Under the pieces are notes generated by a model. The model did not search any database. It had not been told where the DNA came from and saw nothing but the letters and a program-made list of their open reading frames with translations. Position numbers and translations under genes: made by a program. A stretch of 64,000 nt of DNA from an uncultured Alphaproteobacteria bacterium (lineage in GTDB: Bacteria > Pseudomonadota > Alphaproteobacteria > Rhizobiales > Hyphomicrobiaceae): NCBI GenBank assembly GCA_963819605.1, contig CAWFWU010000010.1:101710-165709 (forward strand), read 5' to 3'. Position 1 is the stretch's first letter. Each line of letters begins with the position of its first letter. Positions 19,079 to 44,926 of the stretch are shown in pieces.

Positions 19079-19153
<75 letters not shown>

Positions 19154-20746: not shown

Positions 20747-21223
20747 ATGAGCCGCCAGACAACGCCTATCACCACTGAAACCGCCGCACTCGCGCAGACC
20801 CTTTTGGGCACTGTGGGTCACCTGGAGTCCTTTACGATTGGCAACCCGGAAACTGGCATCTCCGCGCCACTGCCGCCGCACATCGCGCAACTCATTCGTC
20901 AGGTGTTGACGAGCTTGGCAGCCGGTCGCGAGGTTACAATTTCTGAAAACTTGACGGAACTCACCCCGAATGAAGCCGCAGACGTCCTCAACGTTTCGCG
21001 CACATACATTATCAAGTTGCTTGATGACGGCGTACTTCCTTACCGGTTAGTCGGTACGCACCGCCGTATCCCCTATGCCGATCTGTTGGCCCACAAGACA
21101 GAGGTGCAAGCGCGTTCACGTGCCGCGCTCGAAGAACTTTATGAAATTGATCGTGAGCTTGGGTTGGATCAGCTCGATGGTCCGCCGCCAGACAAATGCG
21201 TGTATCGGACCGACCGTTCCTGA
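20747..21223 (+). CDS. Excisionase-like HTH antitoxin of a PIN toxin pair
   Basis: ELTPNEAADVLNVSRTYIIKLLDDG.LPYRLVGTHRRI; TGATG overlap with the PIN gene. Confidence 0.85.
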   Translation: MSRQTTPITTETAALAQTLLGTVGHLESFTIGNPETGISAPLPPHIAQLIRQVLTSLAAGREVTISENLTELTPNEAADVLNVSRTYIIKLLDDGVLPYRLVGTHRRIPYADLLAHKTEVQARSRAALEELYEIDRELGLDQLDGPPPDKCVYRTDRS

Positions 21224-21807
21224 TGACCGCAGTCCCCGCCGTATTCGTTGATACCAATGCGCTCTATTCCACGGCGCTACGGGACATCTTTATCGAACTT
21301 GCCGCTGCGGGCGTGATCCGCCTGTATTGGTCACAAACCGTCATTGATGAGCTGAATACCGCCATCCTGAAGCAACGCCCGCAAACACCGGTTCATCGCA
21401 TTGCTACTCGAACAGCCGCAATGAACTACACTTTGCCGACAGCCATGGTGGTACCGAACCCCGAGCGAAAATTGAAGGCCACGCTGCCCGATCCTAAAGA
21501 TGCGCATGTCCTTGCCGCCGCGCTTGATGCTGGCTGTAGTCTCATCATAACATTCAATTTGCGTGACTTTCCAACTGCCGAATTGCAACGCGAAAGCGTT
21601 CCCATCCGGGCAGTACATCCCGATGAATTCCTGGTCACACTGCTCACCACAAACGCCACGCCCGTTTTGAAAATCATTCAAGACGTTGCGAAGAAATTAA
21701 ACAAGCCGCCGATGCCGTGGCCGGACTACCTTGCCAGCCTTGTGAAATCTGAGCTTCGGCAAACGGCGGCTTTGTTGCAATATCTTGTGCCACCGCCAAG
21801 TTCATGA
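21223..21807 (+). CDS. PIN-domain (VapC-like) toxin
   Basis: VFVDTNALY, WSQTVIDE, LPDPKDAHVLAAA, IITFNLRDFP. Confidence 0.88.
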   Translation: MTAVPAVFVDTNALYSTALRDIFIELAAAGVIRLYWSQTVIDELNTAILKQRPQTPVHRIATRTAAMNYTLPTAMVVPNPERKLKATLPDPKDAHVLAAALDAGCSLIITFNLRDFPTAELQRESVPIRAVHPDEFLVTLLTTNATPVLKIIQDVAKKLNKPPMPWPDYLASLVKSELRQTAALLQYLVPPPSS

Positions 21808-22054: not shown

Positions 22055-22357
22055 CTAGAACAGGGCTCTCACATCGCGCGCACCATGCACCACCCTGATG
22101 ATCGTCAGGGCAACATCATCGAACATGTAATAGATGACATAGTTCTTGTAGGGCGCCGCACGCAGCCCTGGCACAATTTGGTCACGCGGTGCCCCCATTC
22201 CCGGGAATTCTAGTAAAGGGGCAAACTTCGCTTCAATCTGTTGGACAAATGCAGACGCAGCTTTAGGTGAATCCTCGGCGATGTAGGCCCAAATCTCGGC
22301 CAGGTCTGCCTCGGCAATGGGCGTAATCAGCAGCTGCAAAGGCTTGGCTCTAGCCAT
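22055..22357 (-). CDS. parE: ParE/RelE family toxin
   Basis: ITPIAEADLAEIWAYIAEDSP...FPGMGAPRD..PGLR..PYKNYVIYY...IIRVVHGARD; start set at ATG 22357. Confidence 0.9.
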   Translation of the reverse strand: MARAKPLQLLITPIAEADLAEIWAYIAEDSPKAASAFVQQIEAKFAPLLEFPGMGAPRDQIVPGLRAAPYKNYVIYYMFDDVALTIIRVVHGARDVRALF

Positions 22358-22361
22358 GCCG

Positions 22362-22631
22362 CTAGCGTTTCTTTGCCGCCAAGCGCTCACCCGCCTTGAT
22401 GATCCGGGCCGGATCGAACGGACGCGCTTTGCCAGCTTTGGCTTGTTTGATGCCAACGGCTACGTCATTGCGTAACGACTGGAGTTCCTGAGCGCGCCGC
22501 GCTTCCGCAAGCTCCCAATCACGCAAGGCTTGGCGCATGACCTCACTCACCGAACCGTAGTTGCCGGTTTGAACCGCTGTTTTAACACGGTCGGCAAGGT
22601 CAGGTGTCAGTGTGATTGTCAGTCGTTCCAT
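22362..22631 (-). CDS. parD: ParD family antitoxin (RHH)
   Basis: MERLTITLT...VQTGNYGSVSEVMRQALRDWE; immediately upstream of parE. Confidence 0.9.
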   Translation of the reverse strand: MERLTITLTPDLADRVKTAVQTGNYGSVSEVMRQALRDWELAEARRAQELQSLRNDVAVGIKQAKAGKARPFDPARIIKAGERLAAKKR

Positions 22632-24220: not shown

Positions 24221-24471
24221 CTCCCTGACGTATCAGAGATCGCGTGCGATGGAGCAGGCCGGACACCACGTGCCACTGGCTGCACTCATTTGCTACCCGC
24301 AGCAGCGGTTCCACCAGCGCCGCATGGCCTGCGTTGAGAGCGTTCTTTCTATAAATCTTTCTTTCTTGCGATGTTGCAAGATTGCAATATAGCCAACTTG
24401 GTTTCTGTCTTTGTTTCTTTCAAAATTTCATTCTTGAAAGCAATATTCAGGACACCAACGAAAGATCACAG

Positions 24472-25158
24472 GTGTTCATCAGCTTTATCAGCCAAAAAGG
24501 CGGGACGAGTAAAACTACGCTCGCGCTTCACGTCGCCGCTCTTATGGCAGCCGCCGGCCAAAAGACACTTCTCATCGACGCCGACCCGCAAGCCAGTTCA
24601 ATGGCATGGTTCGCTTGCCGCGTTGGCCACAAGCAGCCAAGCCCCAAGGGCTTAACGGTGATGGCCATCAACAATGGCACAATCACCGACCAACTTCCTG
24701 AACTGGCCAATTCCTATGATTGCATCATCATCGATGGCCCACCGCGCGGTGACCGCATCGCCCGCGATGTGATCCTCGCCAGCGACATCGTCATCATCCC
24801 CACGCGCCTGTCCGGCTTTGACGTGTGGGCAGGTGACAGCATCACCAAAACTATTGAATAGCTTCGCCCAATTCAGAAGATGGCCTCCAAACGCCCTCTG
24901 GATTGGTTTTACGTCGTCAACCAGAAGAACCCCCGCACCACAGTCGGAAAAGTAATCCTACGCGCTCTGGAGCAGCATCAGGGGCATATTCTCGACAGCC
25001 ATATCTGCGAACGCACCTGTTTCATCGAAAGCACAAGCCAAGGCCTGACCATTCTGGAGACAGAACAGCCGGGCAGCAAAGCGCTGCGCGAAATAACAGC
25101 GCTTGCCGAAGAAATCCGATCACTCATCCACCAACGACACAACAGGAGCGCCGCCTAG
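24472..25158 (+). pseudogene. parA: Plasmid-type ParA with in-frame TAG at 24859-24861
   Basis: SQKGGTSKTT (Gly to Ser in the deviant Walker A), IDADPQ, IIDGPP; the two ORF-track pieces are in the same frame across one TAG. Confidence 0.85.
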
Positions 25159-25467
25159 ATGAACCGCATGAAGGACTTCACCGCCCACAACCCAACTGGC
25201 GCCACGCCTGGCATGGAGCCGGTCAACCTGGATGTGTTGAAAGCAGCCGTTGCCAATGAAATGGCACCAACGCCTGCAAGTAGCCCACAGGCAGCTACGT
25301 CAAGTCAGAGCCTGACGCCCAAGAACTTGCGCTTGCCGAGCGATCTGGTGGATTTCATCGACTACGTCTACACCAAAGACCACCGCATGAAGAAACAGGA
25401 CGCCTACACGTTGGCGCTAGAAAAGTTCTTCCGGCCCCTCATGCCAAACCGTGGCAACAGCGTTTGA
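25159..25467 (+). CDS. Small ParA partner, probable C-terminal ribbon-helix-helix (ParG-like)
   Basis: Abuts parA (TAG-ATG); disordered N-terminus then KNLRLPSDLVDFIDY...KKQDAYTLALEKFF. Confidence 0.55.
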   Translation: MNRMKDFTAHNPTGATPGMEPVNLDVLKAAVANEMAPTPASSPQAATSSQSLTPKNLRLPSDLVDFIDYVYTKDHRMKKQDAYTLALEKFFRPLMPNRGNSV

Positions 25468-26518
25468 CGACGACATGGACGGCCACGCTCAGCCACCTGC
25501 CATCCACGACGCCGACTTACTTGCCGAACGCGATGCTGCCCGGGGCAGGCCTGGGTTCAACTACATTGAAATGTCCCTGATTGCCCGCCAAGTGGAGCGT
25601 GACAGGCTTGCGGCTCTAACACCCAGCCAACGACGCCGCGCCGTCACCCGCACAAGTTTTGAAACACAGCCCGCCAGCCTTGATGACTTGCGTCTCATCC
25701 ACAGCGTTCTGGCGATTTGTGGCCTTCCGTACAAGCGCCTGCCAATCGAGGTCCGCGAGTTCGAACGCCGCCAAAGCAACATGGCCCTGGACGTGTCAGC
25801 AGGTTCACTCCGCAACGACAGGGGTGAAAACATTCCCCAGCCGCTGCCATTCGGCCCAAAAGCACGGCTTGTCTTGATGCATCTATGCAGCCAGGCCGTT
25901 TACAACAGGTCACCGACCATCGACCTCAATGAAACCTTCACCGCATTTGTTCGTGAGCTAGGATTTAACGACAGCGGCGGCCCTCGGGGCGCACTTACCG
26001 CATTCAAGCATCAGCTCAACGCACTGGCGGCCCGCACGATGAAGGTCAGCGTCTGACAGCCCGGCGTTGGCGTTCGGACAGAGCACATCACACCGATCAA
26101 GAGCTTCGAGCTTTGGCTGTCCGACAACATGCACCAGCGGGCGCTTTGGCCAAGTAGCCTGACATTCAGCACCGACTTTTATGAAAGCCTTCGCGCCCAT
26201 GCCGTGCCGCTGAATATTCGGGCCATCTGAGCCTTTGCAGGTTCGGCCCGCACGCTCGATGCCTATTATTGGCTTGGCTACCGCATGACCCGTCTCAAAG
26301 CGCAAACAGTGATTTCATGGGATGCGCTGGCTGAACAATTCGGCGAAGGCTATGCCCGCCAACGCGATTTCAAAGCCAGCTTCATCCGCGATATCGCCGA
26401 CATCAAAGAGCTATTCCCGAAGCTTCCAGTGACGACGAACGAACGGGGTCTCCTACTCAAACCTGCGAGCTTAGAAGCGTTGGCCTTACCTGCGCCACGA
26501 TCCAAAAAGTCATCATAA
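25451..26518 (+). pseudogene. repA: Plasmid replication initiator (RepA_C family) with two in-frame TGA stops (26054, 26228)
   Basis: HSVLAICGLPY, LPFGPKARL, QLNALAA, LWPSSLTFSTDFYESL..HAVPL, LDAYYWL.YR, ISWDAL.EQFG..Y; one frame throughout. Confidence 0.85.
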
Positions 26519-27888: not shown

Positions 27889-28240
27889 AGTCACAGCCCT
27901 CGGATTTTCATCGTCTTAGTCAGCTTTAATTGAGGTTGACCTTCCAAGGTGCGGACGTGGCCACCACCGGTGCACTTGACCCAATACGGTCGCGCGCTTC
28001 AAAGGCCGCCGTTCGCCAAGATGGCAGCTTGTGAAAAATGCTGACGAAACGGAACCGCCGCGCCACCTTTTCCGACAGCACAGACCCAGTGGGGACCTGC
28101 GCTTGCCGCAGCAGCTCTGGGATTTTGTCGACGCGTACCTCTCTCTGTGTGGCCCAGATTGGACGAGCCGCACGGAGGAGGTTGGTTGACAATTCCTCAG
28201 CGTTCGAGAATTGATTGTGAACATATAGTAGGAGGGTCCA

Positions 28241-31063
28241 ATGTCGTCTGGCCCACGTGCTTTTCCGGATCATTTTATTTCAATTTATCAGTCAGCCGTG
28301 GAAGAATTGGCGCGAGATCGTGCCAAAAGATTGCCCGAGGCCAACGGTCCCGAGACAGAGACGAAGGGATTGGATTTCGCCTCCGCCATGAATGCGGCGG
28401 CAGCTGAACTCGGTGCGCTTCGGATGCACGGACGCGTGTACAGCCCGCAAGGAGAGCAAAAGTCGATCGGCACTGTGATGACTTGCGCCAGCCTCGGGCT
28501 CAAGTACATGGAGGCGCTTATAAAAGGCGACGAAGTCGCGGCCAGAGCGATCGAGGGCAAGTTAAGCGACGCAAAGTGTGACCCTGGATGGGCCTCGACA
28601 CTGGGCGAATATTACAGTTCTTATCTTGGTGCCGATGGCGCTAGACGACCGATCCCATATCGTCGCGCCGCAACAGTTGGACCGGCCGTCATCACGATTC
28701 AAGCGAACGCACGAATCGCAATCGTTGGAGACTGGGGCACTGGAGCAATCCCTGCCATTCGCGTCGCACGGCAGATCGCGCAGCTCAAACCGGACATACT
28801 GGTCCATTTGGGCGACATCTATTATTCTGGCACGCCAAATGAATGCAAAGATAACTTCATCGACATTCTTGATAATGTCTTTGATCGTGCGCGGACCAAG
28901 CTACCCGTATTCACACTGGCCGGCAATCACGACATGTACAGTGGCGGCGCCGGCTTTTATTCTCTCATCGACCGGCTCAATGAAGGGCCTATGCAGCAGC
29001 GAGCCAGCTTTTTCTGTCTCAGAAGTTCTGACAATGCGTGGCAGCTTCTGGGGATGGATACCGGGCTCAACGACTACGCGCCGCTGTCGGTCACTGAGAC
29101 CCTAACCCACCTGGAGGCTGACGAAGAACAGTGGCACCTTGATCGAATCGTAGAATTTCCCGGAAAGACAATACTGCTCTCGCATCATCAACTCTTCTCA
29201 GCGTTCTCTCAAATTGGCGCCGAGAACGAACGAGGACGGCTTTGCGCACATAATCCGCGACTTCTCGAAAGCTATGAGAAGTTCGTCAAAACAGGAAAGA
29301 CGATCTCGGCCTGGTTTTGGGGGCACGAACATAGCCTATACCTCTATGACGGCTATTTGAACCTATCGAGAGGCCGCTGCCTAGGCCACGGCGCCATTCC
29401 GGTTTTCGCCAGTGAAGAACCCTACTTGCCGCTTAGAAATCTCCGCGACCCGCCTTCCATTCTTAAAGACTTGAATGTCGGGCACTCAGGTGACGTGTAT
29501 GCAAACGGCTTCGCAATTCTGGATCTAGAACCGGCGAAGAAAGACGCGACGGTCAGATATTTTCAGGATGTACAAGGCGCCACGAACGAAGTCTATTCCG
29601 AGTCCCTCGTAGCCGCCGGCAGTGCAAGCAAGACAAAGCCTATGCCGCCGCCAACATCGGCGGAGACCATATTTTTTGCGCCTCAGGCTCCGAACCGGAA
29701 AAAGCGCAGCAGCAAGGTAGCGTTTGTGGTTGGCAATCAACACTATCGCGACGTCTCGAAACTGACGAACCCGGCCGCCGACGCCGGTATCGTGCGCACT
29801 GAATTGGAGCAACTCGGCTTCGAAGTCTATGGCGGAGTGAATTTCGACTTGAATGCAATTCGCGATCGTTTTGACTACTTCGAAAGCCAGATTGGCAAAG
29901 CCGAGGTCGCCCTGCTTTATTACTCTGGGCACGGCGTGCAAATCGATGGTCAGAACTACGTGGTCCCGATCGATGGCAGCATGACGTCACTTTTGGCGTC
30001 GGCGCGCGAGACGCAGATACAGAGCCTCGTCAACCGGATGGCACAGAGCAGCAAGAAATGCTTGGTCTTCCTGGATGCATGCCGCGACAATCCTTTCATC
30101 GAGAGCATCGCCGAACCAGCAAACAATGCCAAGCGCGTTGGTTTACAGGAGACCCAATCAATTGCCGCCTTTATCTCTCACGGCCTGGCTCCGGTGGACG
30201 TCAGAGGAAAAGTTCAGGCCTTCATCGCTTTTGCCGCCGCGCCTGGGAAATATGCTTACGGCAGCGACGGCCGCTACAGCTACTTCACGCAGGGTCTCGT
30301 CTCGCACCTTAATACGCAAGGTTTAAGTATCGATGGCCTGATGAATCGCGTGCGCCAAGACGTCAAGGGCGCAACAGGCGAGACACAAGATCCTTGGAGT
30401 CAGACCAACCTCACTAATGACTACTACTTCAAGCCGGCTTCCCTGCTCCCCGCTTATGTCATGGCCCTTTTAGGTGCCCTCTCTGGATTCGTGACAGCTT
30501 GGAGAACCTTCGATCCGACGGGGCTCTTCCAAAACGGATGGAACGGATGGGGTGGCGCATTTTTCGGACTCGTTGTGGGTTTCGGCGTGTGGCGATGGGG
30601 GCGGCGCAATTTTTGGGCGGCGGGCCTGGCATTTCTGTCTGTCACGCTGGCCTTCAAACTTGCCTTTTTCTACATGGACTGGATCGGCACCACTGACCTA
30701 GACAAACGCTCAAACAGAATCGGGCCATTTTTTGAAAACGCAAAGCTGATGCGCGATATGATAGGTGCCTCGATTGCCGCAAGCATCTGCATGTTAGGTA
30801 CGATTCTCGGTGCCGCCGTCACCACGCCCGCGCTACGTCGTCCAAACGCCTACGTCATGATGCTATTTGCTGGCCTCCTCGTCGTTCCAGTTGTGGGGTT
30901 GGTAATGGCGGCCCAGTCATTTGAACTCCCCGGATTCAACAAAGATGACTATGATCGTCTCGCTGCGATCTTAGGTGCGATGACTTGGCAGGCCGGTCTA
31001 GGTTTCACGATTGGCTACGGACTGAGCCAATACGTACCCGAGCCTGGTGAGCGAAAGCTTTGA
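28241..31063 (+). CDS. Metallophosphoesterase + caspase (C14) + multi-TM fusion protein
   Basis: GDWG, HLGDIYY, GNHD, SHH and GHEH phosphoesterase motifs; FVVGNQHY, YYSGHG and FLDACR caspase dyad; hydrophobic C-terminus of about six helices; ggaggg RBS. Confidence 0.88.
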   Translation: MSSGPRAFPDHFISIYQSAVEELARDRAKRLPEANGPETETKGLDFASAMNAAAAELGALRMHGRVYSPQGEQKSIGTVMTCASLGLKYMEALIKGDEVAARAIEGKLSDAKCDPGWASTLGEYYSSYLGADGARRPIPYRRAATVGPAVITIQANARIAIVGDWGTGAIPAIRVARQIAQLKPDILVHLGDIYYSGTPNECKDNFIDILDNVFDRARTKLPVFTLAGNHDMYSGGAGFYSLIDRLNEGPMQQRASFFCLRSSDNAWQLLGMDTGLNDYAPLSVTETLTHLEADEEQWHLDRIVEFPGKTILLSHHQLFSAFSQIGAENERGRLCAHNPRLLESYEKFVKTGKTISAWFWGHEHSLYLYDGYLNLSRGRCLGHGAIPVFASEEPYLPLRNLRDPPSILKDLNVGHSGDVYANGFAILDLEPAKKDATVRYFQDVQGATNEVYSESLVAAGSASKTKPMPPPTSAETIFFAPQAPNRKKRSSKVAFVVGNQHYRDVSKLTNPAADAGIVRTELEQLGFEVYGGVNFDLNAIRDRFDYFESQIGKAEVALLYYSGHGVQIDGQNYVVPIDGSMTSLLASARETQIQSLVNRMAQSSKKCLVFLDACRDNPFIESIAEPANNAKRVGLQETQSIAAFISHGLAPVDVRGKVQAFIAFAAAPGKYAYGSDGRYSYFTQGLVSHLNTQGLSIDGLMNRVRQDVKGATGETQDPWSQTNLTNDYYFKPASLLPAYVMALLGALSGFVTAWRTFDPTGLFQNGWNGWGGAFFGLVVGFGVWRWGRRNFWAAGLAFLSVTLAFKLAFFYMDWIGTTDLDKRSNRIGPFFENAKLMRDMIGASIAASICMLGTILGAAVTTPALRRPNAYVMMLFAGLLVVPVVGLVMAAQSFELPGFNKDDYDRLAAILGAMTWQAGLGFTIGYGLSQYVPEPGERKL

Positions 31064-31451: not shown

Positions 31452-31665
31452 CGGCGCTCGGCCAATCCTACCACACGCAAGGATGCATTGGGACGCGACG
31501 TCCGTCCGGATAATGAACCCGATTGCCCGACTGGCGTAGCCGTGCATCAGCCAATGGTACTTGTACGCGGGCGGGCTGGCGTTCCGGCGGAGATCGGGTA
31601 GTGTTGTGGTCCGCGCCTCATATTCTTGCGCGGATGACCCAGGCTTTTTTGCCGGTGAGTTCGAC

Positions 31666-33759
31666 ATGAGTTTTTCTCGTCGCATTCTCAATGAGCTGCG
31701 CTCGTACCCCGGTATGGTCCGCTGGTATGATCCAAAGCAGTTGTCGGAAACGGGAATGCGGGACGTTATTACCCGCATTTTTGGCCAATTCGCCGACCAA
31801 CGCATGCTCCAGGCGACTGTCGACGGCTTCAGCCCAGAAGTGATGCAGAACGTGGTGAGCAAGCGCCACGATTACTCCAAAGACGACCAGTTCAAGCGCG
31901 CCGAGGCCGTCTGGGTCGATTACACCGCCGATCTTGGCGACGGTTTTGACGCGACGTACGCCATCGCGTCGCTCATTTCGGCCGGTGAGGTCGAGGTCGA
32001 AGGTGCCGGTACGTTGCCGGGCGGCAAATTTCTTTTGCTGGGCGGAGATCAAGTCTACCCATTTCCCTCGCGCGCTGACTACGAGCAGAAATTCGCCAAG
32101 CCTTATGCTATGGCCTTGCCGCGCACGCCGTCGCAACCAGCAGAGCGTTTCATGTTTGCACTGCCTGGCAACCATGATTGGTATGACGGACTCAACGCCT
32201 TCGACAACATGTTCTGTAAGGCGCGCTACGCGTCGTATGGAACCGAGCGCTCTGACAACAGGATCGGCGGCTGGGTCTGTCCGCAGCACCGCAGCTACTG
32301 GTCGATTAAGTTGCCACACAATTGGTGGATCTGGGGCGCCGACATCCAGCTGTCGCATTATCTCGATGCCGGACAAATCCTCTACTTCAAAGAAGTAGCG
32401 CGGGATATGAAGGCCGCCTCGCCGGCCGATCCGCCCAAGGTCATTTTGTGTATTTCCGAACCGAGCTGGATGAAGGAGCGACGCAGCGAGGACCAAGGCG
32501 AGCAGAACCTCGACACCATTGTCAACATTGCGCTCGACAACCACGCCCGCATCGCCGCCGTGCTGACGGGAGACACTCACCACTACAACCGTTATTTCGC
32601 ACCAAGCCACGGCTTGAACCTGATCACGGCCGGCGGCGGTGGCGCATATTTTTCGCCAACCCACCTGCTGAAAGACAAGCTCAAGATGAAGTTCGAGGGC
32701 GATGACATCGATCTCGAACTCAATTGCAAGGCGTCGCCAAAGCCCGGCGCGCCACCTCAAGAAAGCTGTTGGCCGCCACGGGCGCGCTCGCGCTTGCTAT
32801 CGTTCAACACGTTGGGCTTTCCATTGCGAAACTACGCCTTCGCGCTTGCGCTTGGGTTCATCTATTGGCTCTTGGCTTGGCCGTTCGCCTTTTCCGAGGT
32901 TGCGTTCAAAGATTATCAGCAGCACACGGTCCACGAATGGGTGTTTGGCGTGAAGGCCACATCGGCCGGTGAGGCGGTGCGCGGTGCAACGGCAACTCTG
33001 CAATCGGCTGTGCAGGCCGTGGAGCCTCTCTCGTGGTCGGAGATGCCGCTCCTCACCTTGCAGGCGGGTATCTCCAACCCGGTTCTGGGTCTGTCAGCAC
33101 TCGTCATTCTGCTGATCCTCATTTTCTATGCCGAGGCGCCCAGCATGATTCAAAGGGTCTTGATGGGCTTTTTGCACTGGCTCGCCCATCTTGCTACTGC
33201 GGTCGTCATGTTCGTGGTGTTGACCCACCTGCTGACCCAAATTATCAACGCACTTGTAACTGTGTCGGCGCTCGTTCCGTCGGCGTTGCGCGTCAGCCAG
33301 ACGACGGCGGAATTGGCTGGGCACTTCCTGGCGCCACCGCTGATGTGGGGAATCGGGGGATTCTGCGGCGGACTGGTCTGGGGGCTCTATCTAACAATTT
33401 CGTGTCTGTTTAATCGTCATTGCGATCAGGCGTTCTCTTCGATGCGGCTGCCGATCTACCGTCACTTCCTGAGAATGAAGATCGAACGCGACACGTTGAC
33501 GATCTATCCGATCGGGTTGACTAATGTGCCGTCGCGGTGGCGGTGGAGGGCTGCGGAGAAGGATCAATGTGGTCTCATCACGGGGCCGCTCTTCGTGCCG
33601 CAACGGCCGTTCAAACCACAATTGATCGACGGTCCAATCGTCATTCCTGCGAACAGCTTGCGGGGGCGGGATCTGTCTATGCGCAAGAAGGGGCCGCTGT
33701 CACTTTCCCCTTCCGAGCAATTGCCGTCGATTGGTTTGGTCCGCGTCAGAACGGAATGA
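31666..33759 (+). CDS. Membrane-anchored metallophosphoesterase
   Basis: DYTADLGDG, GGDQVYP, PGNHDWYD and GDTHHY motifs, followed by several TM helices; start set at MSFSRR (31666). Confidence 0.85.
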   Translation: MSFSRRILNELRSYPGMVRWYDPKQLSETGMRDVITRIFGQFADQRMLQATVDGFSPEVMQNVVSKRHDYSKDDQFKRAEAVWVDYTADLGDGFDATYAIASLISAGEVEVEGAGTLPGGKFLLLGGDQVYPFPSRADYEQKFAKPYAMALPRTPSQPAERFMFALPGNHDWYDGLNAFDNMFCKARYASYGTERSDNRIGGWVCPQHRSYWSIKLPHNWWIWGADIQLSHYLDAGQILYFKEVARDMKAASPADPPKVILCISEPSWMKERRSEDQGEQNLDTIVNIALDNHARIAAVLTGDTHHYNRYFAPSHGLNLITAGGGGAYFSPTHLLKDKLKMKFEGDDIDLELNCKASPKPGAPPQESCWPPRARSRLLSFNTLGFPLRNYAFALALGFIYWLLAWPFAFSEVAFKDYQQHTVHEWVFGVKATSAGEAVRGATATLQSAVQAVEPLSWSEMPLLTLQAGISNPVLGLSALVILLILIFYAEAPSMIQRVLMGFLHWLAHLATAVVMFVVLTHLLTQIINALVTVSALVPSALRVSQTTAELAGHFLAPPLMWGIGGFCGGLVWGLYLTISCLFNRHCDQAFSSMRLPIYRHFLRMKIERDTLTIYPIGLTNVPSRWRWRAAEKDQCGLITGPLFVPQRPFKPQLIDGPIVIPANSLRGRDLSMRKKGPLSLSPSEQLPSIGLVRVRTE

Positions 33760-33781
33760 TTGCGTCCGCAGAAATCTTGTA

Positions 33782-35596
33782 ATGAGTGCAGCCATGACGC
33801 TGAATTTGTCGAAATCAATAGAACAGATGGCGCCGTCCTACGATGCTGTTGTGGTCGGTTCGGGCTATGGGGGTGGCGTCGCTGCCTGCCGGCTCGCGCG
33901 CTGTGGCCTGTCAGTTGCGGTGCTTGAACGCGGCCGCGAATATGCCCCGGGTGAATTCCCAACAAACCCGATGCAGGCGACCAGGGCCCTTCAGGTCACA
34001 GGCGCTTCGGGAACCATGGGTTCGCCAATGGCGCTCTTTGATATACGTGCCGGAGACGGGGTACATGTCTTGAAGGCTTGCGGGCTCGGGGGCACCTCGC
34101 TCATTAACGCCGGCGTGTGCCTATCGCCCGATGAACGCGTTTTCAAATCCTCCTTGTGGCCCGGCGAGATTCGGTCCGACGGCATGCTGGCCGACGGCTA
34201 TTTGAAGGCGCGCGCCATGTTGCGTCCCGCAGCCCAGCCTGGTTGGCGCGATTTTCCAAAAGTGAAGGCGCTCGCCACCGCCGCGCAGGCCTTCAACGAA
34301 ACGCTGCAGCCGGCCCCTATTCACGTTGCCTTTTCCAAGGGACCAAATGCCGCCGGTGTCGAGCAGCCGGCCTGCACGGCATGCGGCGATTGCTGCGGCG
34401 GCTGCAACGTCGGTGCCAAAACGACCGTGCGCAACACATACCTGGCGGCGGCCAATGCGGCGGGTGCCGCGATCTTTACACAAACCGACGTGCGTCTGGT
34501 CAGCAAGGAGAGCGACGGACGCTGGCGCGTGACGTTCGCGGCGCTTGGCGATGGGCACGCGGGCCATGAATATTTCGTGCTAGCGGGTATCGTCGTCCTG
34601 GCAGGGGGGACGCTAGGTTCGACAGAAATACTCATGCGCTCCCGCGCTGCCGGCTTGGCGCTGTCCGACACGCTCGGGGCTCGCGTAACGAGCAATGGTG
34701 ATGTCATCGCGCTCGCCTACAATACGGTGTATCCCGTGCATGGTGTCGGTGTTGGTCATCCCTCCCGTTTAGGCGGCATTCCGGTTGGTGCTGCGGTCAA
34801 TGGCCTGCTGGACCTACGCGACGGTGTGCCACTCGAGGAGGGCTTGGCCATCGTCGAATGTGCTCTGCCGAGTTCGCTGGCACCCTTGCTGCCCGGCTTG
34901 CTTGCCGCCGGTTCGGCTGTCTTCGGCAAGGATGCCGATCGCTCATTGGCGAGCGAGATGGGCGAGATCAAACGTACGGCATCCGGTTTTCTTGGGGGTG
35001 CCTCTGGCGGCGCTGTCAATAACACGGAGACATTCTTGGCCGTCGGGCACGATGCCGGTGATGGCCGCATGGCATTCGAGGATGACAGGGTTCGATTGAT
35101 ATGGCCGCAGGCGGCCAAGCATCAGGTGTTCGCACGTATCGACGACGCGATCAAAAAAGCATCGTATGCGCTCGGCGGCACCTACTTGCGCAATCCGGCT
35201 TCAATAGAGTTTCTGGGAGGAAACTTATTGACCGTCCATCCGCTCGGTGGCGCGGTCATAGCGGCCGACCGTACAGGAGGCGTCGTCAATCATAAGTGCC
35301 AGGTCTTCGACACTACGCCCGGAACCTTTCCAGACAACGTGCATCGCGGACTCTACGTGTGCGATGGGTCCGTCGTCCCATGCCCGCTCGGTGTGCATCC
35401 TCTGCTGACGATCACAGCTATTGCCGAGCGAGCGATGGTGCACCTGGCAAACGACCGCAAGCTGATTGAAAAACCCCGTTCGGTACCACAGATAGCGCCG
35501 GTGTCCGCGCGGCCAGTCTTGACCCCCGGCATTCCGGTTCCTCCCGCGCCGCGGCGGATCAGTCTTTGGAATTTTATTGCCGGGCGCTGGCGTTGA
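33782..35596 (+). CDS. Cholesterol-oxidase-like (ChoD-type) GMC oxidoreductase
   Basis: VVVGSGYGG, LERG, GLGGTSLINA, CTACGDCCGGC, TVHPLGG, YVCDGS..P..LGVHP..TITAIAER. Confidence 0.88.
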   Translation: MSAAMTLNLSKSIEQMAPSYDAVVVGSGYGGGVAACRLARCGLSVAVLERGREYAPGEFPTNPMQATRALQVTGASGTMGSPMALFDIRAGDGVHVLKACGLGGTSLINAGVCLSPDERVFKSSLWPGEIRSDGMLADGYLKARAMLRPAAQPGWRDFPKVKALATAAQAFNETLQPAPIHVAFSKGPNAAGVEQPACTACGDCCGGCNVGAKTTVRNTYLAAANAAGAAIFTQTDVRLVSKESDGRWRVTFAALGDGHAGHEYFVLAGIVVLAGGTLGSTEILMRSRAAGLALSDTLGARVTSNGDVIALAYNTVYPVHGVGVGHPSRLGGIPVGAAVNGLLDLRDGVPLEEGLAIVECALPSSLAPLLPGLLAAGSAVFGKDADRSLASEMGEIKRTASGFLGGASGGAVNNTETFLAVGHDAGDGRMAFEDDRVRLIWPQAAKHQVFARIDDAIKKASYALGGTYLRNPASIEFLGGNLLTVHPLGGAVIAADRTGGVVNHKCQVFDTTPGTFPDNVHRGLYVCDGSVVPCPLGVHPLLTITAIAERAMVHLANDRKLIEKPRSVPQIAPVSARPVLTPGIPVPPAPRRISLWNFIAGRWR

Positions 35597-35661: not shown

Positions 35662-38600
35662 ATGCCTATGCGCCGGCTTTCGCGATCAGTCGCCGACCTC
35701 AAGATGCAATACGACGTCATCGTCGTCGGATCGGGATACGGCGCTGGCGTTGCTGCCTCCCGCATGGCGCGCTGCGGACGCCGCGTTTGCGTGCTGGAAC
35801 GCGGCCGCGAATTTGCGCTCGGCGAGTTTCCCGACCGGATCGGAGAAGCCCGCGAAGAGACGCGCATTACGACAAGTGGCAAGTCGGTCGGGTCGGAGTT
35901 GGCCCTGTACGATTTACGGCTCGGCCGCGACATGAACGTGCTGCTCGGCTGCGGGTTGGGCGGGGGATCTCTAATCAACGCCAACGTCGCCTTGCCACCG
36001 GACGATCGAATTTGGAATGATCCAGTATGGCCGCAGGCCTTACGCGGCGATAAGGATGGCACGCGCCTTGAAGGCTTCGTGCGTGCCCGCCAGATGTTGC
36101 GGCCCGTGCCCTACCCAAATGCCGTTCCATTGCCCAAGCTCAAAGCGCTGGAGATGGCGGGACAGGCGCTCGGTGCCGATGCCGTTCGCCCGCCCATCAC
36201 GGTGACGTTTGTACCCACCAGGAACCACGCCGGTGTTGAGCAGCCGGCCTGCACCTTGTGCGGTGATTGTTGTGCCGGATGCAACGTCGGCGCCAAGACG
36301 ACGGTGCAGTTCTCCTATATGGCCGATGCCGAAAGCCACGGCGCTGAGATTTTTACGCAGGTACGCGTCACGCGGCTGGCACGCGAGCGCGGGCGCTGGC
36401 GTATTTATTTCCAACCGCTCGGCATGGTGCGCGACAAGTTCGGCGCGCCCGAAATGTCGCTGATCGCGGAGGTTGTTGTTCTGGGTGCGGGCGCGTTGGG
36501 CTCGACCGAGATACTGTTACGTTCGGCGGCGAACGGCCTGCCCGTTTCGTCTGCTGTGGGCCAACGCTTTACCGGCAACGGAGATGTGCTTGCGTTCGCC
36601 TACAATAACGACGTGGAGATCAACGGCATCGGCTTTGGTCATCCACCGCAAGCCAACCCCGGCCCGGTCGGGCCCTGCATCACGGGCATCATCGATATGC
36701 GCGACAGCCCGCTGCTTGACGATGGCATGGTTATCGAGGAGGGTTCCATTCCTTCTGGGCTCGCGCCTATCCTTCCCGCCACGATGGCGGGCGGCGCGCG
36801 GGCCTTCGGAGTCGATACCGACTTCGGCGTGAAAGACGAGTTGGACGAGGCTGCGCGCCAAGCGATGAGCCTCGTATTCGGTGCCTACCACGGCGCAGTA
36901 CACAACACGCAGACGTTTCTGGTGATGGCACACGACGGCGCCGGCGGCCGCTTGCAACTTGAAAACGACAAGCTTGAAGTGTCCTGGCCGGGCGTTGCGG
37001 AACTGCAGGTTTTCAAGACCATCAGTGAGCGCCTGGAAAAGGCAACCCGCGCGACTGGGGGGACTTACACGCGAAATCCGATGACGACGACGCTGCTGGG
37101 AAATAATCTCATCACGGTGCATCCCCTCGGCGGGTGCGGCATGGCCGAGAGGCACGATGCCGGGGTCGTCAATCACAAGTGCCAGGTGTTCGATGCAAGC
37201 CCGGGCGCACCCCCCGATGCCGTGCTTGAAGGACTTTACGTTTGCGATGGCGCCGTCATGCCGCGTTCGCTCGGTGTCAATCCATTTCTGACGATTACGG
37301 CTCTTGCAGAGCGCGCCATGATCCATTTGGCACGCGACTATCAGTGGTCGTTCACAACTGAGGCTCGCAAGCCGGCGCCGGCGATGGCCTTTGTGCCACC
37401 CGTGCCTGTGCCGTCATTTTCACAGGAACCCGCGACCGGGGTTGAATTCACCGAGCGTATGGCCGGTTACCTGTCGTTCGAACCGGTCGTGCCGCACGAC
37501 ACTGCGTTCGCCAAGGGAAAAGCCGCCGATCAGTCCTTCGCCTTCACGGTGACGGTGCTCATCGACGATGTGGATCGTTTCATTGCTGATCCGGCGCACA
37601 AGGGCCGCCTCATCGGGACGGTGGATTGCCTTGCGCTTTCGCCGTCACCGCTCGATATCTTTGATGGTACGTTCAATCTGATGCGCGCCGAACAGTCGGC
37701 GGTGGAGACGAAGCGCTTCGACTATGCGTTCTCTGCTGTGACGCGTGAGGGTGCGGAGTATCAATTTGCCGGCTACAAGATCGTGCGCAATGATGCCGGA
37801 CTTGATTTGTGGCGCGATACCACAAAGCTTTATTTTGATATCGCCCGGGGGCGTGTTGGGCGGCAGGGCGCACTGGGCCGAGGCATGCTGGAAATCCGGC
37901 CCAAGGATTTTGCCGTCCAACTGCAGACCGTGCGTGGCACCGGCGGTACTGGGACCCTTGATCGGACGAAAGCGGTCGCCAAGTTCGGCCAGTTCTTCGG
38001 GGGGGAATTGTTCAGCACATTTGGCGGCCTCTTCACACGCAGTACGCGATACGACGCGGGCGCACCGCGCAAAAAGCGGAATCTGCGGGCTCCTGAACCC
38101 GAACTTCATATGTTCAAGGCGGCGGACGGCAAGCTGTTGCGTTTGACGCGCTATAATGGCGGGACGAAAGGGCCGGTACTTTTGGCGCACGGCCTGGGCG
38201 TATCGAGCCTCATCTTTTCCATCGATACCATCGATACTAATCTGCTCGAATACCTAGTTGCCGCCGGCTACGATTGCTGGCTGCTCGACTTCCGCGCCAG
38301 CATCGATTTGCCATATGCCAAGACCCAGTGGAGCGGCGACGACGTGGCGCTCTACGATTATCCTGCTGCCGTGGCGAAGGTGCGTGCGGAGACCGGCGCG
38401 CAGTCCGTGCAGGTCGTGGCGCACTGCTTTGGCGGCACGACATTCTCGATGGCGTTGCTGGCGGGGCTCGAAGGTGTGCGCTCGGCGGTCATCTCGCAGA
38501 TCTCGACCGATTACGTCGTGCCCTATTTTCCGCAGAAGCTGCTGGCGCAACTCCATTTGCCGCAACTCTTCGATCACATCGGTCTCGACGTCATCGACGC

Positions 38601-39114
38601 GCGCGCCACGGTGGCTGATGGCATGGGAGAGCGCCTGCTCGACTGTTTCTTGCGCTTCGCAGTTCCGATGCCGCGAGCGGAACGCAACAGAAGCGCGACG
38701 AGCGCGCGGATCAGTGCACTTTACGGGCGCCTCTATCAGCTCGACCAGCTCAACGCCGAAACATTCGAGGCGGGACTGCCGGAGATGTTCGGCGAGGCCA
38801 ATATCTCGGCATTCAAGCAGCTCGCTTACTTCGTGCGGCTTGGGCATGTCGTGGATAAAACCGGGGCTGACGTGTACCTTCCCAACATTGCAAGGATGGC
38901 CATGCCGATCCTGTTCGTGCATGGCGCAGCCAACGCCTGCTTCAAGCCAGAGAGTACACAGCGCACGCTCACGCGGTTGGCTGCGGCCAACGGTGCAGGG
39001 TACTACGACCGCAAGGAGATCCCAGGTCACGGCCACATCGACTGTATATTCGGAAAGAACGCCGTGAGCGCTGTCTATCCTTATATACGGCGGCATCTGG
39101 ACGCGAGCGCCTGA
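35662..39114 (+). CDS. GMC oxidoreductase + unnamed central domain + alpha/beta hydrolase fusion
   Basis: Same GMC motifs (GSGYGAG, CTLCGDCCAGC, TVHPLGG); central VEFTERMAG... domain; hydrolase with LAHGLG, VVAHCFGG and GHGHIDC. Confidence 0.88.
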   Translation: MPMRRLSRSVADLKMQYDVIVVGSGYGAGVAASRMARCGRRVCVLERGREFALGEFPDRIGEAREETRITTSGKSVGSELALYDLRLGRDMNVLLGCGLGGGSLINANVALPPDDRIWNDPVWPQALRGDKDGTRLEGFVRARQMLRPVPYPNAVPLPKLKALEMAGQALGADAVRPPITVTFVPTRNHAGVEQPACTLCGDCCAGCNVGAKTTVQFSYMADAESHGAEIFTQVRVTRLARERGRWRIYFQPLGMVRDKFGAPEMSLIAEVVVLGAGALGSTEILLRSAANGLPVSSAVGQRFTGNGDVLAFAYNNDVEINGIGFGHPPQANPGPVGPCITGIIDMRDSPLLDDGMVIEEGSIPSGLAPILPATMAGGARAFGVDTDFGVKDELDEAARQAMSLVFGAYHGAVHNTQTFLVMAHDGAGGRLQLENDKLEVSWPGVAELQVFKTISERLEKATRATGGTYTRNPMTTTLLGNNLITVHPLGGCGMAERHDAGVVNHKCQVFDASPGAPPDAVLEGLYVCDGAVMPRSLGVNPFLTITALAERAMIHLARDYQWSFTTEARKPAPAMAFVPPVPVPSFSQEPATGVEFTERMAGYLSFEPVVPHDTAFAKGKAADQSFAFTVTVLIDDVDRFIADPAHKGRLIGTVDCLALSPSPLDIFDGTFNLMRAEQSAVETKRFDYAFSAVTREGAEYQFAGYKIVRNDAGLDLWRDTTKLYFDIARGRVGRQGALGRGMLEIRPKDFAVQLQTVRGTGGTGTLDRTKAVAKFGQFFGGELFSTFGGLFTRSTRYDAGAPRKKRNLRAPEPELHMFKAADGKLLRLTRYNGGTKGPVLLAHGLGVSSLIFSIDTIDTNLLEYLVAAGYDCWLLDFRASIDLPYAKTQWSGDDVALYDYPAAVAKVRAETGAQSVQVVAHCFGGTTFSMALLAGLEGVRSAVISQISTDYVVPYFPQKLLAQLHLPQLFDHIGLDVIDARATVADGMGERLLDCFLRFAVPMPRAERNRSATSARISALYGRLYQLDQLNAETFEAGLPEMFGEANISAFKQLAYFVRLGHVVDKTGADVYLPNIARMAMPILFVHGAANACFKPESTQRTLTRLAAANGAGYYDRKEIPGHGHIDCIFGKNAVSAVYPYIRRHLDASA

Positions 39115-44766: not shown

Positions 44767-44884
44767 ACGTAAACCGTCCCGCCGCTGAAAGCCCGCAAAT
44801 CCTGGGTTTTGAACTCAGTGCGTGCCACAGCCCGCCACCTCAAGCACCTTGATAATACTCACTAATATCTAGATCTTCCCCTTA

Positions 44885-44926
44885 CCAAGGTCGGGGTCGA
44901 GGGTTCGATCCCCTTCGCCCGCTCCA
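44885..44926 (+). repeat. attR core (42 bp, 3' half of tRNA-Gly)
   Basis: Identical to 19112-19153; extends by cctt with one mismatch. Confidence 0.95.

What the first reader, a model, noticed from the sequence alone, without database searches (positions are those of the whole stretch)
28241..31063. Phosphoesterase-caspase-membrane tri-domain protein
Seen: N-terminal GDWG/GDIYY/GNHD/GHEH metallophosphoesterase (D-x-G variant, as in purple acid phosphatase types), a Pro-rich basic linker (KTKPMPPP...NRKKRSSK), an intact caspase dyad (SGHG, DACR) and about six TM helices. Inference: the membrane part may sense a signal, and the caspase may release or activate the phosphoesterase or cleave a neighbouring protein.
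Basis: partly seen in the sequence, partly recalled or inferred. Interest (0 to 1): 0.72.

Follow-up and report, generated by a model that had tools for sequence, protein, structure and literature searches.

The report
Membrane-anchored caspase fused to a phosphoesterase
This is a real, rare bacterial gene. It joins a purple-acid-phosphatase-type phosphoesterase, a MALT1-like caspase protease and a six-helix membrane anchor in one protein. It most likely belongs to the "protease plus latent killer enzyme" modules that bacteria use in conflicts with phages, a class whose phosphoesterase branch is untested.

Summary
ORF 28241-31063 (+) encodes 940 aa with a strong ribosome-binding site. It has a complete PAP-type metallophosphoesterase (MPP) motif set, a disordered Pro- and Lys/Arg-rich linker, a caspase fold with an intact His564/Cys614 dyad, and six C-terminal TM helices. 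All catalytic residues are invariant in 12 homologues down to 39% identity.

The protein joins two pre-existing units:
- **MPP cassette (aa 1-456).** It occurs elsewhere fused or adjacent to trypsin, caspase, S41 and S8 proteases, to EndoNS nuclease, and in TIR-TIR-caspase-MPP operons. It also sits next to homologues of the GMC-oxidoreductase/lipase gene found 4.6 kb downstream in this window.
- **Caspase-6TM unit.** It also exists alone.

The caspase is closest to the MALT1 paracaspase and has an acidic S1 pocket, so Arg/Lys cleavage is inferred. The MPP is closest to mammalian purple acid phosphatase. The TM bundle matches no solved fold and has no periplasmic domain. The gene lies in a 25.8-kb tRNA-Gly island full of toxin-antitoxin and Abi genes.

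Best reading: a membrane-tethered, single-chain protease-phosphoesterase conflict module. Cleavage, substrate and trigger are all untested. It is a new variant of a predicted but uncharacterised kind.

The parts
28230..28236 (+). Shine-Dalgarno-like AGGAGGG, 5 nt before the ATG
28241..31063 (+). Whole gene, 940 aa plus stop: MPP cassette, linker, caspase, 6TM
28241..29608 (+). MPP cassette, aa 1-456. It has a helical N-terminal subdomain (aa ~10-130), a PAP-type metallophosphoesterase core and a C-terminal beta-hairpin. This block is shared as a unit with more than 100 other proteins.
28727..28738 (+). MPP motif I, GDWG (Asp164)
   Evidence: invariant
28811..28825 (+). MPP motif II, GDIYY (Asp192; Tyr195 is the PAP-type Tyr ligand)
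28922..28933 (+). MPP motif III, GNHD (Asn229, His230)
29180..29188 (+). MPP motif IV, SHH (His315/His316)
29321..29332 (+). MPP motif V, GHEH (His362, His364)
29609..29713 (+). Disordered Pro- and Lys/Arg-rich linker, aa 457-491. It contains a semi-conserved short strand, TIFFAP (aa 476-481), and a basic run, NRKKRSSK. Candidate release site.
29714..30427 (+). Caspase (Peptidase_C14) domain, aa 492-729, closest to the MALT1 paracaspase
29924..29935 (+). SGHG, catalytic His564
30074..30085 (+). DACR, catalytic Cys614. Asp612 aligns with the S1-pocket Asp of MALT1.
30125..30160 (+). Low-confidence loop, aa 629-640, after the catalytic Cys (p20/p10-like junction). It carries a semi-conserved AK(R). 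Candidate autoprocessing site.
30428..31060 (+). Six-helix membrane bundle, aa 730-940. Conserved motifs are WRWG, FFENxKLMRD and TPALRR. Loops are short and there is no periplasmic domain.
35662..39114 (+). Possible functional partner: a 1150-aa fusion of a GMC oxidoreductase (cholesterol-oxidase-like), an 'X' domain and an acid-lipase-like alpha/beta hydrolase. Homologues at 47-49% identity sit next to MPP-cassette genes in other phyla.
33731..35596 (+). Paralogous GMC oxidoreductase, a tandem duplicate of the N-terminal part of the next gene
31561..33759 (+). Second, unrelated Metallophos protein with its own C-terminal hydrophobic region. The likely true start is the ATG at 31666. It has no specific similarity to the cassette.
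19107..19153 (+). Left boundary of the genomic island: 3' end of tRNA-Gly(GCC)
44880..44926 (+). Right boundary of the island: 47-nt direct repeat of the tRNA-Gly 3' end (98% identical)

Best explanation
The protein is a self-contained, membrane-tethered protease-phosphoesterase conflict (abortive-infection type) module. Both enzyme domains face the cytoplasm, held by a C-terminal six-helix bundle.

**Shown**
- Both active sites are intact and conserved.
- The protein is a fusion of a mobile MPP cassette with a pre-existing caspase-6TM unit.
- The cassette is habitually partnered with proteases.

**Inferred**
- The paracaspase-like domain is latent as a monomer. It is switched on when the membrane domains cluster or change state, for example on phage-induced membrane or envelope perturbation.
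- It cuts after Arg/Lys. The cuts would fall in the disordered basic linker and/or flexible loops of the cassette, in cis or in trans, and possibly in other cell proteins.
- Cleavage frees or unlocks the PAP-type binuclear phosphoesterase. That enzyme then destroys an essential phosphoester pool, either nucleotide- or NAD-derived molecules or phospholipid-derived head groups. The result stops growth of the infected cell.
For: - **Domains and invariant catalytic residues:**
- **Models:** the AlphaFold full-length model has pLDDT 84.9 with a disordered linker and a disordered caspase loop.
- **Caspase type:** the caspase is nearest the Arg-specific MALT1 paracaspase. Asp514 and Asp612 align with the two MALT1 S1 aspartates.
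- **MPP type:** the MPP is nearest mammalian purple acid phosphatase, including the entry with the inhibitory 'repression loop'.
- **Cassette fusions:** aa 1-456 recurs as a block fused to Trypsin_2, Trypsin_2+EndoNS, caspase and S41.
- **Cassette operons:** it recurs in TIR-TIR-caspase-small-MPP operons (caspase in 15, the two TIR genes in 12 and 11, the small gene in 9 of 80 genome loci) and directly after S8 subtilases.
- **TM domain:** it is found only behind caspase domains.
- **Topology:** no signal peptide, and the short cytoplasmic loops are purely basic.
- **Genomic setting:** a tRNA-Gly island with PIN, ParE, two MNT/HEPN pairs and AbiEii. Homologues lie next to NACHT-STAND, Cas3-like and RtcR/RtcB genes.
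- **Literature:** a metallophosphoesterase is listed among ten protease-associated effector families. Four of the others were shown to be protease-activated zymogens (PMC12642450). Bacterial caspase-like proteases are Arg-specific executioners (10.1101/2024.10.24.620036). Caspase-activated nucleases are also described (PMC12799240).
Against: - There is no experiment on any member.
- No Arg/Lys is conserved in a loop of the cassette across 56 sequences, and the linker sequence drifts. A fixed cleavage site is therefore not evident.
- No sensor such as a STAND, ABC or TIR protein is nearby in the window.
- PADLOC gives only weak hits.
- About a fifth of cassette loci carry GMC oxidoreductase, lipase or cytochrome c neighbours that look metabolic rather than immune.
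- I could not check that this cassette belongs to the published 'MPE' family, because Krishnan 2020 is not held.
Confidence: 0.45

Rival explanations
1. Two parallel warheads with no zymogen step. The caspase itself is the executioner, a promiscuous Arg-specific protease as in type IV Thoeris or PCaspase. The MPP is a second, independent effector. The membrane domain only regulates or localises both, and the linker is never cut.
For: Bacterial caspase-like effectors degrade many proteins after Arg (10.1101/2024.10.24.620036). Stand-alone caspase-6TM proteins exist without any MPP. No conserved cleavage site was found.
Against: The cassette pairs with four different protease folds, including in fusions that already carry a nuclease warhead. 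Independent effectors explain this less well than a protease-substrate relation does.
Confidence: 0.2
2. The MPP is a regulator that degrades a nucleotide signal and acts as an off-switch or threshold, not an effector. It would hydrolyse a TIR-type ADP-ribose-derived (or similar) activator of the attached protease, as ring nucleases do in type III CRISPR.
For: The cassette closes TIR-TIR-caspase operons that resemble type IV Thoeris. From my own knowledge, some metallophosphoesterases (ADPRibase-Mn) hydrolyse ADP-ribose and cyclic ADP-ribose.
Against: There is no TIR or other signal synthase in the window island among the ORFs scanned. Many cassette contexts (trypsin-EndoNS, GMC-lipase, patatin) have no nucleotide synthase. 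The closest structures are acid phosphatases, not nucleotide pyrophosphatases.
Confidence: 0.12
3. The protein is part of a lipid-processing or envelope-remodelling gene set and not an immune system. The MPP would act as a phosphodiesterase on phospholipid-derived head groups at the membrane. It would work together with the downstream cholesterol-oxidase-like GMC enzymes, the acid-lipase-like hydrolase and the methyltransferase. The caspase would serve as a maturation or turnover protease.
For: GMC-X-lipase homologues (47-49% identity) are adjacent to cassette genes in Acetobacteraceae, Acidobacteria, Bacteroidota and Bryobacteraceae. Patatin-X + GMC + MPP operons also occur. A second tri-domain gene (L088) has such a GMC next to it. 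The lipase domain resembles gastric and lysosomal acid lipase. The protein is membrane-anchored.
Against: Four other full-length homologues have no GMC or lipase neighbour. A 600-bp gap separates the gene from the downstream cluster. Patatin and alpha/beta hydrolases are themselves common death effectors (PMC12642450). The gene lies in a TA-rich mobile island.
Confidence: 0.18

Closest known systems
Protease-effector modules of prokaryotic defence: trypsin-MBL nuclease, Canu caspase-nuclease, caspase-alpha/beta-hydrolase, and the predicted 'MPE' class (PMC12642450, PMC12799240)
   Same: A hydrolase is habitually fused or adjacent to proteases of several unrelated folds. It carries disordered segments. 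It sits in variable or defence-type islands.
   Different: Here the effector is a PAP-type metallophosphoesterase, whose class has not been tested experimentally. Protease and effector are one polypeptide, with the effector N-terminal. The only candidate sensor is a membrane bundle rather than a STAND, Hachiman or ABC protein. Sequence membership in the published MPE family could not be checked.
Type IV Thoeris caspase-like effector (ThsE / PsCaspase) and PCaspase
   Same: A bacterial C14 protease. Specificity for basic P1 is inferred here and demonstrated there. Related cassette loci carry a TIR-TIR-caspase arrangement.
   Different: The window has no TIR partner. The protein carries a membrane anchor and a fused phosphoesterase. 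The nearest solved sequence is MALT1.
Human MALT1 paracaspase
   Same: It is the best sequence and structure match for the caspase domain. The His/Cys dyad and two acidic S1 residues align. MALT1 is activated by induced proximity, without obligatory processing (my own knowledge).
   Different: Identity is about 21%. The protein has no death domain and no Ig domains. It is bacterial and membrane-bound.
Mammalian purple (tartrate-resistant) acid phosphatase
   Same: It has the same motif variant (GDxG / GDxxY / GNHD / H / GHxH) and is the best structural match (TM about 0.69 normalised to the target). It is a latent enzyme relieved by proteolytic cleavage of a repression loop (title of 2bq8, and my own knowledge).
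   Different: The cassette has an extra ~150-aa helical N-terminal subdomain. The protein is cytoplasmic rather than secreted or lysosomal. Identity is 17-19%. Whether an equivalent inhibitory loop exists was not tested.
Membrane-associated prokaryotic metacaspases and orthocaspases (survey in PMC3501461)
   Same: A caspase homologue with predicted TM helices. About 15% of prokaryotic metacaspases have them.
   Different: That survey of 112 architectures does not mention a phosphatase or phosphoesterase fusion in its main text. The six-helix bundle here is a specific family found only behind caspase domains.

Membership tests
Calcineurin-like metallophosphoesterase superfamily, purple-acid-phosphatase type | Five motifs that supply seven metal ligands: GDxG, GDxxY, GNH(D/E), an H motif and GHxH | tested here: met
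   Asp164, Asp192, Tyr195, Asn229, His315/316, His362 and His364 are all present. They are invariant or at least 90% conserved in 56 sequences. Pfam PF00149 scores 59 bits against a cutoff of 21.5.
Calcineurin-like metallophosphoesterase superfamily, purple-acid-phosphatase type | Beta-sandwich MPP fold similar to solved PAPs | tested here: met
   Foldseek matches 2bq8, 1war, 1ute and 1qhw with E 3e-11 to 4e-10 and TM(target) 0.64-0.69. The phmmer search of PDB returns PAPs as the only significant hits.
Calcineurin-like metallophosphoesterase superfamily, purple-acid-phosphatase type | Fe(III)-M(II) centre and phosphoester hydrolysis | not testable with these tools
   This needs purified protein, metal analysis and substrate assays.
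Peptidase C14 (caspase / metacaspase / paracaspase) | Caspase-hemoglobinase fold with a His-Cys catalytic dyad | tested here: met
   PF00656 gives E 5e-34. His564 and Cys614 are invariant and align with the MALT1 'YYAGHG' and 'LDMC' motifs. Foldseek gives E 3e-12 to MALT1.
Peptidase C14 (caspase / metacaspase / paracaspase) | Acidic S1 pocket that gives Arg/Lys P1 specificity (the paracaspase/metacaspase branch) | tested here: inconclusive
   Asp514 and Asp612 align with the Asp of MALT1 'PLVDV' and 'LDMC'. By my recollection these are S1 residues Asp365 and Asp462. The third MALT1 residue (Glu500) lies outside the aligned stretch. Activity is untested.
Protease-associated MPE effector module (Krishnan et al. 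2020, as cited in PMC12642450) | A metallophosphoesterase encoded next to or fused with a protease | tested here: met
   It is fused here. The cassette is also fused or adjacent to S1, C14, S41 and S8 proteases elsewhere.
Protease-associated MPE effector module (Krishnan et al. 2020, as cited in PMC12642450) | Sequence membership in the published MPE family, and linkage to an ABC-3C or other sensor | not tested
   The source paper is not held. No ABC or STAND sensor gene was found among the window ORFs scanned.
Type IV Thoeris | A TIR-domain signal synthase encoded with the caspase-like effector | tested here: not met
   No TIR domain was found among the ORFs of the window island that were scanned. 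TIR genes occur only in related cassette operons of other genomes, for example L021.
EACC1-associated caspase (NCBIfam NF047832) | Score above the curated cutoff | tested here: not met
   26.5 bits against a cutoff of 140.

The most novel reading that the evidence does not exclude
The 456-aa MPP cassette would be a new class of protease-gated phosphoesterase death effector. This gene would be a complete one-protein immune system: an intramembrane sensor, a paracaspase-like switch and a releasable PAP-type enzyme. After release, that enzyme would attack a phosphoester pool not yet known as an immune target, for example phospholipid-derived head groups acting together with GMC oxidases and lipases, or NAD-derived signals.
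Probability: 0.25. Interest if true: 0.8.

Novelty: new variant of a known kind. Interest (0 to 1): 0.6.

Why it matters
Protease-activated effectors have just emerged as a dominant logic of bacterial immunity, but the phosphoesterase branch has never been tested. This gene puts protease, candidate substrate and candidate sensor in one polypeptide. One construct and two point mutants (C614A and an MPP-dead mutant) could show three things:
- whether a PAP-type enzyme is a protease-gated effector;
- what it hydrolyses;
- whether a membrane bundle can act as the trigger.

The comparison also links the cassette to type IV Thoeris-like TIR-caspase operons and to GMC-oxidase/lipase clusters. Those links widen the set of systems that such an experiment would explain. 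The parallels with MALT1 and with proteolytically activated mammalian acid phosphatase add evolutionary interest.

Tried and rejected
- **Plasmid search.** Megablast of 22-34 kb against plasmids found no match.
- **Exact protein look-up.** The protein is not in the contig collection. One sequencing run holds only 6% of the gene's words. The source organism is therefore unidentified. The best homologue, at 86% identity, is from a Hyphomicrobium MAG.
- **L047.** The genome scan seemed to show a second full-length gene here. It is in fact a caspase(331)-small-MPP operon with a broken MPP.
- **P0122.** It looked like a stand-alone caspase-TM protein. It is a tri-domain gene split by a scaffold gap. 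P0126 is a genuine stand-alone.
- **Metagenome scan with caspase-TM patterns.** 79 of 80 loci were caspase-only relatives without this TM domain or the MPP. One locus (L091) is another tri-domain fragment.
- **Conserved Arg/Lys cleavage site in the cassette.** Only structural Arg/Lys residues are conserved.
- **Fold search of the TM bundle.** Nothing significant was found: best E 0.09, TM 0.35.
- **Downstream Metallophos gene as a paralogue of the cassette.** Rejected, because the similarity is only at superfamily level.
- **Periplasmic location of the enzyme domains**, suggested by conserved cysteines and cytochrome c neighbours. Rejected, because no signal peptide occurs in any cassette protein inspected and the loop charges fit an N-in topology.
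Full report
**1. Is it there?**

Yes. The + strand carries one uninterrupted ORF, 28241-31063, of 940 codons. An AGGAGG lies five bases before the ATG. Homologues start with the same MxxGPRxFPDHF, so the start is right.

- GDWG at aa 163, GDIYY 191, GNHD 228, SHH 314, GHEH 361 and GHG 382 in the phosphoesterase;
- SGHG 562 and DACR 612 in the caspase.

Pfam confirms Metallophos at aa 158-365 (E 1e-15) and Peptidase_C14 at aa 492-729 (E 5e-34). The linker, aa 457-491, has 6 Pro and 7 Lys/Arg in 36 residues. Hydropathy shows five strong hydrophobic segments and one Gly-rich one.

AlphaFold2 models the whole protein well: pLDDT 84.9, pTM 0.63. It shows six helices between aa 736 and 929. The low-confidence parts are the linker (463-472, 483-485) and a loop after the catalytic Cys (629-640). 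No paralogue of any of the three parts occurs elsewhere in the window.

**2. Conservation and rarity**

A search of 5.8 billion protein clusters gave only 12 full-length relatives, at 86-38% identity. Nearly all are metagenomic. The best is annotated only as 'caspase family protein' from a Hyphomicrobium MAG. In the 13-sequence alignment every metal ligand, the His/Cys dyad and several membrane-domain motifs (WRWG, FFENxKLMRD, TPALRR) are invariant or nearly so. Both enzymes are therefore under selection to stay active.

Two further instances turned up:
- a gene split by a scaffold gap (L088);
- a contig-end fragment (L091).

No intact full-length copy appeared among the best 80 loci from 185,579 species-representative genomes. 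The architecture is real but rare.

**3. Anatomy: a fusion of two older units**

*(a) The MPP cassette.* Residues 1-456 behave as one cassette. More than 100 other proteins match the query from residue 1 to exactly 456 at 33-50% identity. In those proteins the cassette takes several forms:
- C-terminal to Trypsin_2;
- C-terminal to Trypsin_2 + Endonuclease_NS;
- C-terminal to a caspase, or to Peptidase_S41;
- free-standing;
- N-terminal to PQQ or FG-GAP propellers.

None of those inspected has a signal peptide. The cassette includes a ~130-aa helical N-terminal subdomain with its own conserved residues: SxxQS, two Cys and CDPxW.

*(b) The caspase-6TM unit.* A search of 1.84 billion representatives with the membrane domain alone gave 25 hits. 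All ten hits scanned with Pfam carry a caspase domain, immediately before the membrane match in every case, and eight of them are 455-546-aa caspase + bundle proteins. At least one of these is a genuine stand-alone gene. One carries an extra C-terminal trypsin domain and one has an unknown 530-aa N-terminus.

The window protein is therefore the MPP cassette, a linker and the caspase-6TM unit.

**4. What each part resembles**

*The MPP.* Its nearest solved relatives, by sequence and by fold, are mammalian purple (tartrate-resistant) acid phosphatases. phmmer gives E 6e-5. Foldseek gives E 3e-11 with TM 0.69 normalised to the target. The hits include the entry that shows the inhibitory repression loop. 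The D-x-G / GDxxY motif variant fits that type.

*The caspase.* Its nearest relative is the human MALT1 paracaspase (phmmer E 6.5e-12, Foldseek E 3e-12). In the printed alignment His564 and Cys614 match the MALT1 dyad. Asp514 and Asp612 match the Asp of 'PLVDV' and 'LDMC'. By my recollection these are S1 residues Asp365 and Asp462 of that Arg-specific enzyme. Cleavage after Arg/Lys is therefore inferred, not shown.

*The membrane domain.* Modelled alone it is a confident compact six-helix bundle (pLDDT 90, pTM 0.86). It has no significant match in the PDB (best E 0.09) and no extracytoplasmic domain. The absence of a signal peptide places the N-terminus in the cytoplasm. So do the purely basic short loops GRRN and TPALRR, set against neutral or acidic alternate loops. 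Both enzymes therefore face the cytoplasm. This topology is an inference.

**5. Company the cassette keeps**

I called ORFs around the cassette in 80 genome loci and clustered the neighbours. Three themes recur.

*(i) Proteases.* Besides the fusions, up to 15 loci (Afipia, Bradyrhizobium, Nitrobacter, Methylobacterium, Methylocapsa and others) carry some or all of an operon TIR(160 aa)-TIR/ThsB-like(123)-caspase(331)-small(92-100)-MPP(460). The caspase is present in 15 of the 80 loci, the two TIR genes in 12 and 11, and the small gene in 9. This resembles type IV Thoeris (TIR + Arg-specific caspase-like effector; 10.1101/2024.10.24.620036) with the cassette appended. In L077 and L079 a Peptidase_S8 sits directly before the cassette. 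Four unrelated protease folds are thus linked to it.

*(ii) Other 'warheads'.* These include the EndoNS nuclease, patatin and an alpha/beta hydrolase.

*(iii) A GMC-oxidoreductase theme.* The window gene 35662-39114 encodes a 1150-aa fusion of GMC, an 'X' domain and an acid-lipase-like hydrolase. Full-length homologues at 47-49% identity lie immediately beside cassette genes in Acetobacteraceae, Acidobacteria, Bacteroidota and Bryobacteraceae loci. They often come with a RoxA-like dihaem cytochrome c. Patatin-X + GMC + MPP operons share both the GMC and the X domain. L088, the second tri-domain gene with flanks, also has such a GMC next to it.

The window's own arrangement, with the tri-domain gene followed 4.6 kb downstream by this GMC-lipase gene, is therefore probably not accidental. 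Four other full-length homologues lack it, however, and share no neighbours apart from a DUF2141 gene next to two of them.

**6. Setting in the window**

A 47-nt repeat of the 3' end of tRNA-Gly(GCC) at 19107-19153 and 44880-44926 (98% identical) brackets a 25.8-kb island. The island holds:
- HTH-PIN, ParE, two MNT/HEPN-like pairs and AbiEii;
- a TraG/VirD4 gene;
- split ParA and RepA remnants;
- a serine recombinase interrupted by a stop codon.

It is a decaying mobile element rich in toxin and abortive-infection genes. About 350 bp of non-coding DNA precedes the gene. No convincing ORF lies between the RepA remnant and the gene. A ~600-bp gap follows the gene. Homologues sit beside a NACHT/DUF4062 STAND protein, a Cas3-like helicase cluster and an RtcR/RtcB/Ro60 RNA-repair operon.

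**7. How it most likely works**

Recent work shows that MBL nucleases, alpha/beta hydrolases, Pepco and EACC1 are latent effectors released by site-specific cuts from partner trypsin-, caspase- or subtilisin-like proteases. That work lists a metallophosphoesterase ('MPE') among the ten protease-associated effector families, still uncharacterised (PMC12642450; PMC12799240). The cassette's habit of changing protease partners while staying intact is the same pattern.

My best account (confidence 0.45) is a membrane-tethered protease-effector module:
1. The six-helix bundle holds the protein at the inner face of the membrane. By clustering or conformational change, it brings two paracaspase-like domains together.
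2. The activated protease cuts after Arg/Lys in the exposed basic linker and/or cassette loops, and perhaps in other proteins.
3. The freed or unlocked PAP-type enzyme hydrolyses an essential phosphoester pool.

What is shown: domain identity, conserved active sites, modular origin and recurrent protease linkage. What is inferred: topology, P1 specificity, activation by proximity, cleavage, the effector role and the substrate.

Weak points:
- no conserved Arg/Lys in cassette loops;
- a drifting linker;
- no recognised sensor gene nearby;
- the metabolic look of the GMC/cytochrome contexts.

**8. Rivals**
- Caspase and MPP are parallel effectors without any cleavage step (0.20).
- The protein is a component of a lipid-processing or envelope-remodelling set together with the GMC, lipase and methyltransferase genes (0.18).
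- The MPP is an off-switch that degrades a nucleotide signal, as suggested by the TIR operons (0.12).

Each rival is separable from the main model by the C614A and MPP-dead mutants and by substrate assays.

**9. Comparison and novelty**

The protein is a bona fide member of the MPP superfamily (PAP type) and of peptidase family C14 (paracaspase/metacaspase side). It fails the tests for type IV Thoeris, because no TIR is present, and for the EACC1-type caspase, scoring 26 bits against a cutoff of 140. Membership of the published MPE family could not be tested.

Caspase homologues with TM helices are known. A 2012 survey of 112 architectures does not mention a phosphoesterase fusion in its main text. 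I rate the finding a new variant of a known, computationally predicted but experimentally untouched kind. Interest: 0.6.

Noticed in passing
window 19107-19153 and 44880-44926 (tRNA-Gly at 19079-19153): A 47-nt direct repeat of the tRNA-Gly(GCC) 3' end (98% identical) brackets a 25.8-kb genomic island that contains the finding.
   Followed up: yes
window 24382-24861 + 24880-25158; 25451-26056 + 26285-26518; 44026-44349 + 43777-44025 (minus strand): The ParA, RepA and serine-recombinase genes each appear split into two ORFs. The recombinase is split by an in-frame stop. The mobile element looks decayed.
   Followed up: partly
window 20747-21807, 22055-22456, 40664-41298, 41499-42179, 42529-43196: The island is dense in toxin-antitoxin and Abi genes: HTH_17+PIN, ParE, two nucleotidyltransferase/HEPN-like pairs and AbiEii. 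The MNT/HEPN assignment rests on reading the sequences and was not scanned.
   Followed up: partly
window 33731-35596 and 35662-39114: Two tandemly duplicated cholesterol-oxidase-like GMC genes (DNA repeats 72-77% identical at ~1.87-kb spacing). The second is fused to an 'X' domain and an acid-lipase-like alpha/beta hydrolase. Full-length homologues sit next to MPP-cassette genes in several phyla.
   Followed up: partly
L080 4244-11047; L081 4403-11137; L083 6533-13155: A conserved three-gene cluster: GMC-X-lipase (~1150 aa), a RoxA-like dihaem cytochrome c with an N-terminal TM segment (~625 aa), and the MPP cassette (~450 aa). It occurs in Acidobacteria, Bacteroidota and Bryobacteraceae. Its function is unknown.
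   Followed up: partly
L021 7781-11374 (Afipia birgiae); similar in L013, L014, L016, L019, L022, L024, L028, L031, L033, L035, L036: The operon TIR-TIR(ThsB-like)-caspase(331 aa)-small(92-100 aa)-MPP cassette resembles type IV Thoeris with two extra genes. L021 also has an upstream caspase-DEAD-helicase fusion of 1032 aa.
   Followed up: partly
window 31561-33759: A second, unrelated Metallophos protein with a long hydrophobic C-terminal half. The ORF's TTG start is probably wrong, and an ATG at 31666 (MSFSRRILNEL...) looks better.
   Followed up: partly
window 28241-29608 (aa 82, 113, 202, 259, 380): Five cysteines of the MPP cassette are invariant or at least 90% conserved across 56 sequences. 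Two of them are in the helical N-terminal subdomain (TCA, CDPxW). Their role, whether metal site, redox or structural, is unexplained.
   Followed up: no
P0142 (846 aa) and P0136 (1082 aa): Other elaborations of the caspase-6TM unit. One has a C-terminal trypsin-like domain. The other has an unknown ~530-aa N-terminal region with a peptidoglycan-binding-like stretch.
   Followed up: no
contexts of P0002 and P0005 (L004 3772-4245): A small DUF2141 gene lies directly next to the tri-domain gene in two of the four homologue contexts looked up by protein. No such gene was recognised next to the window copy.
   Followed up: no
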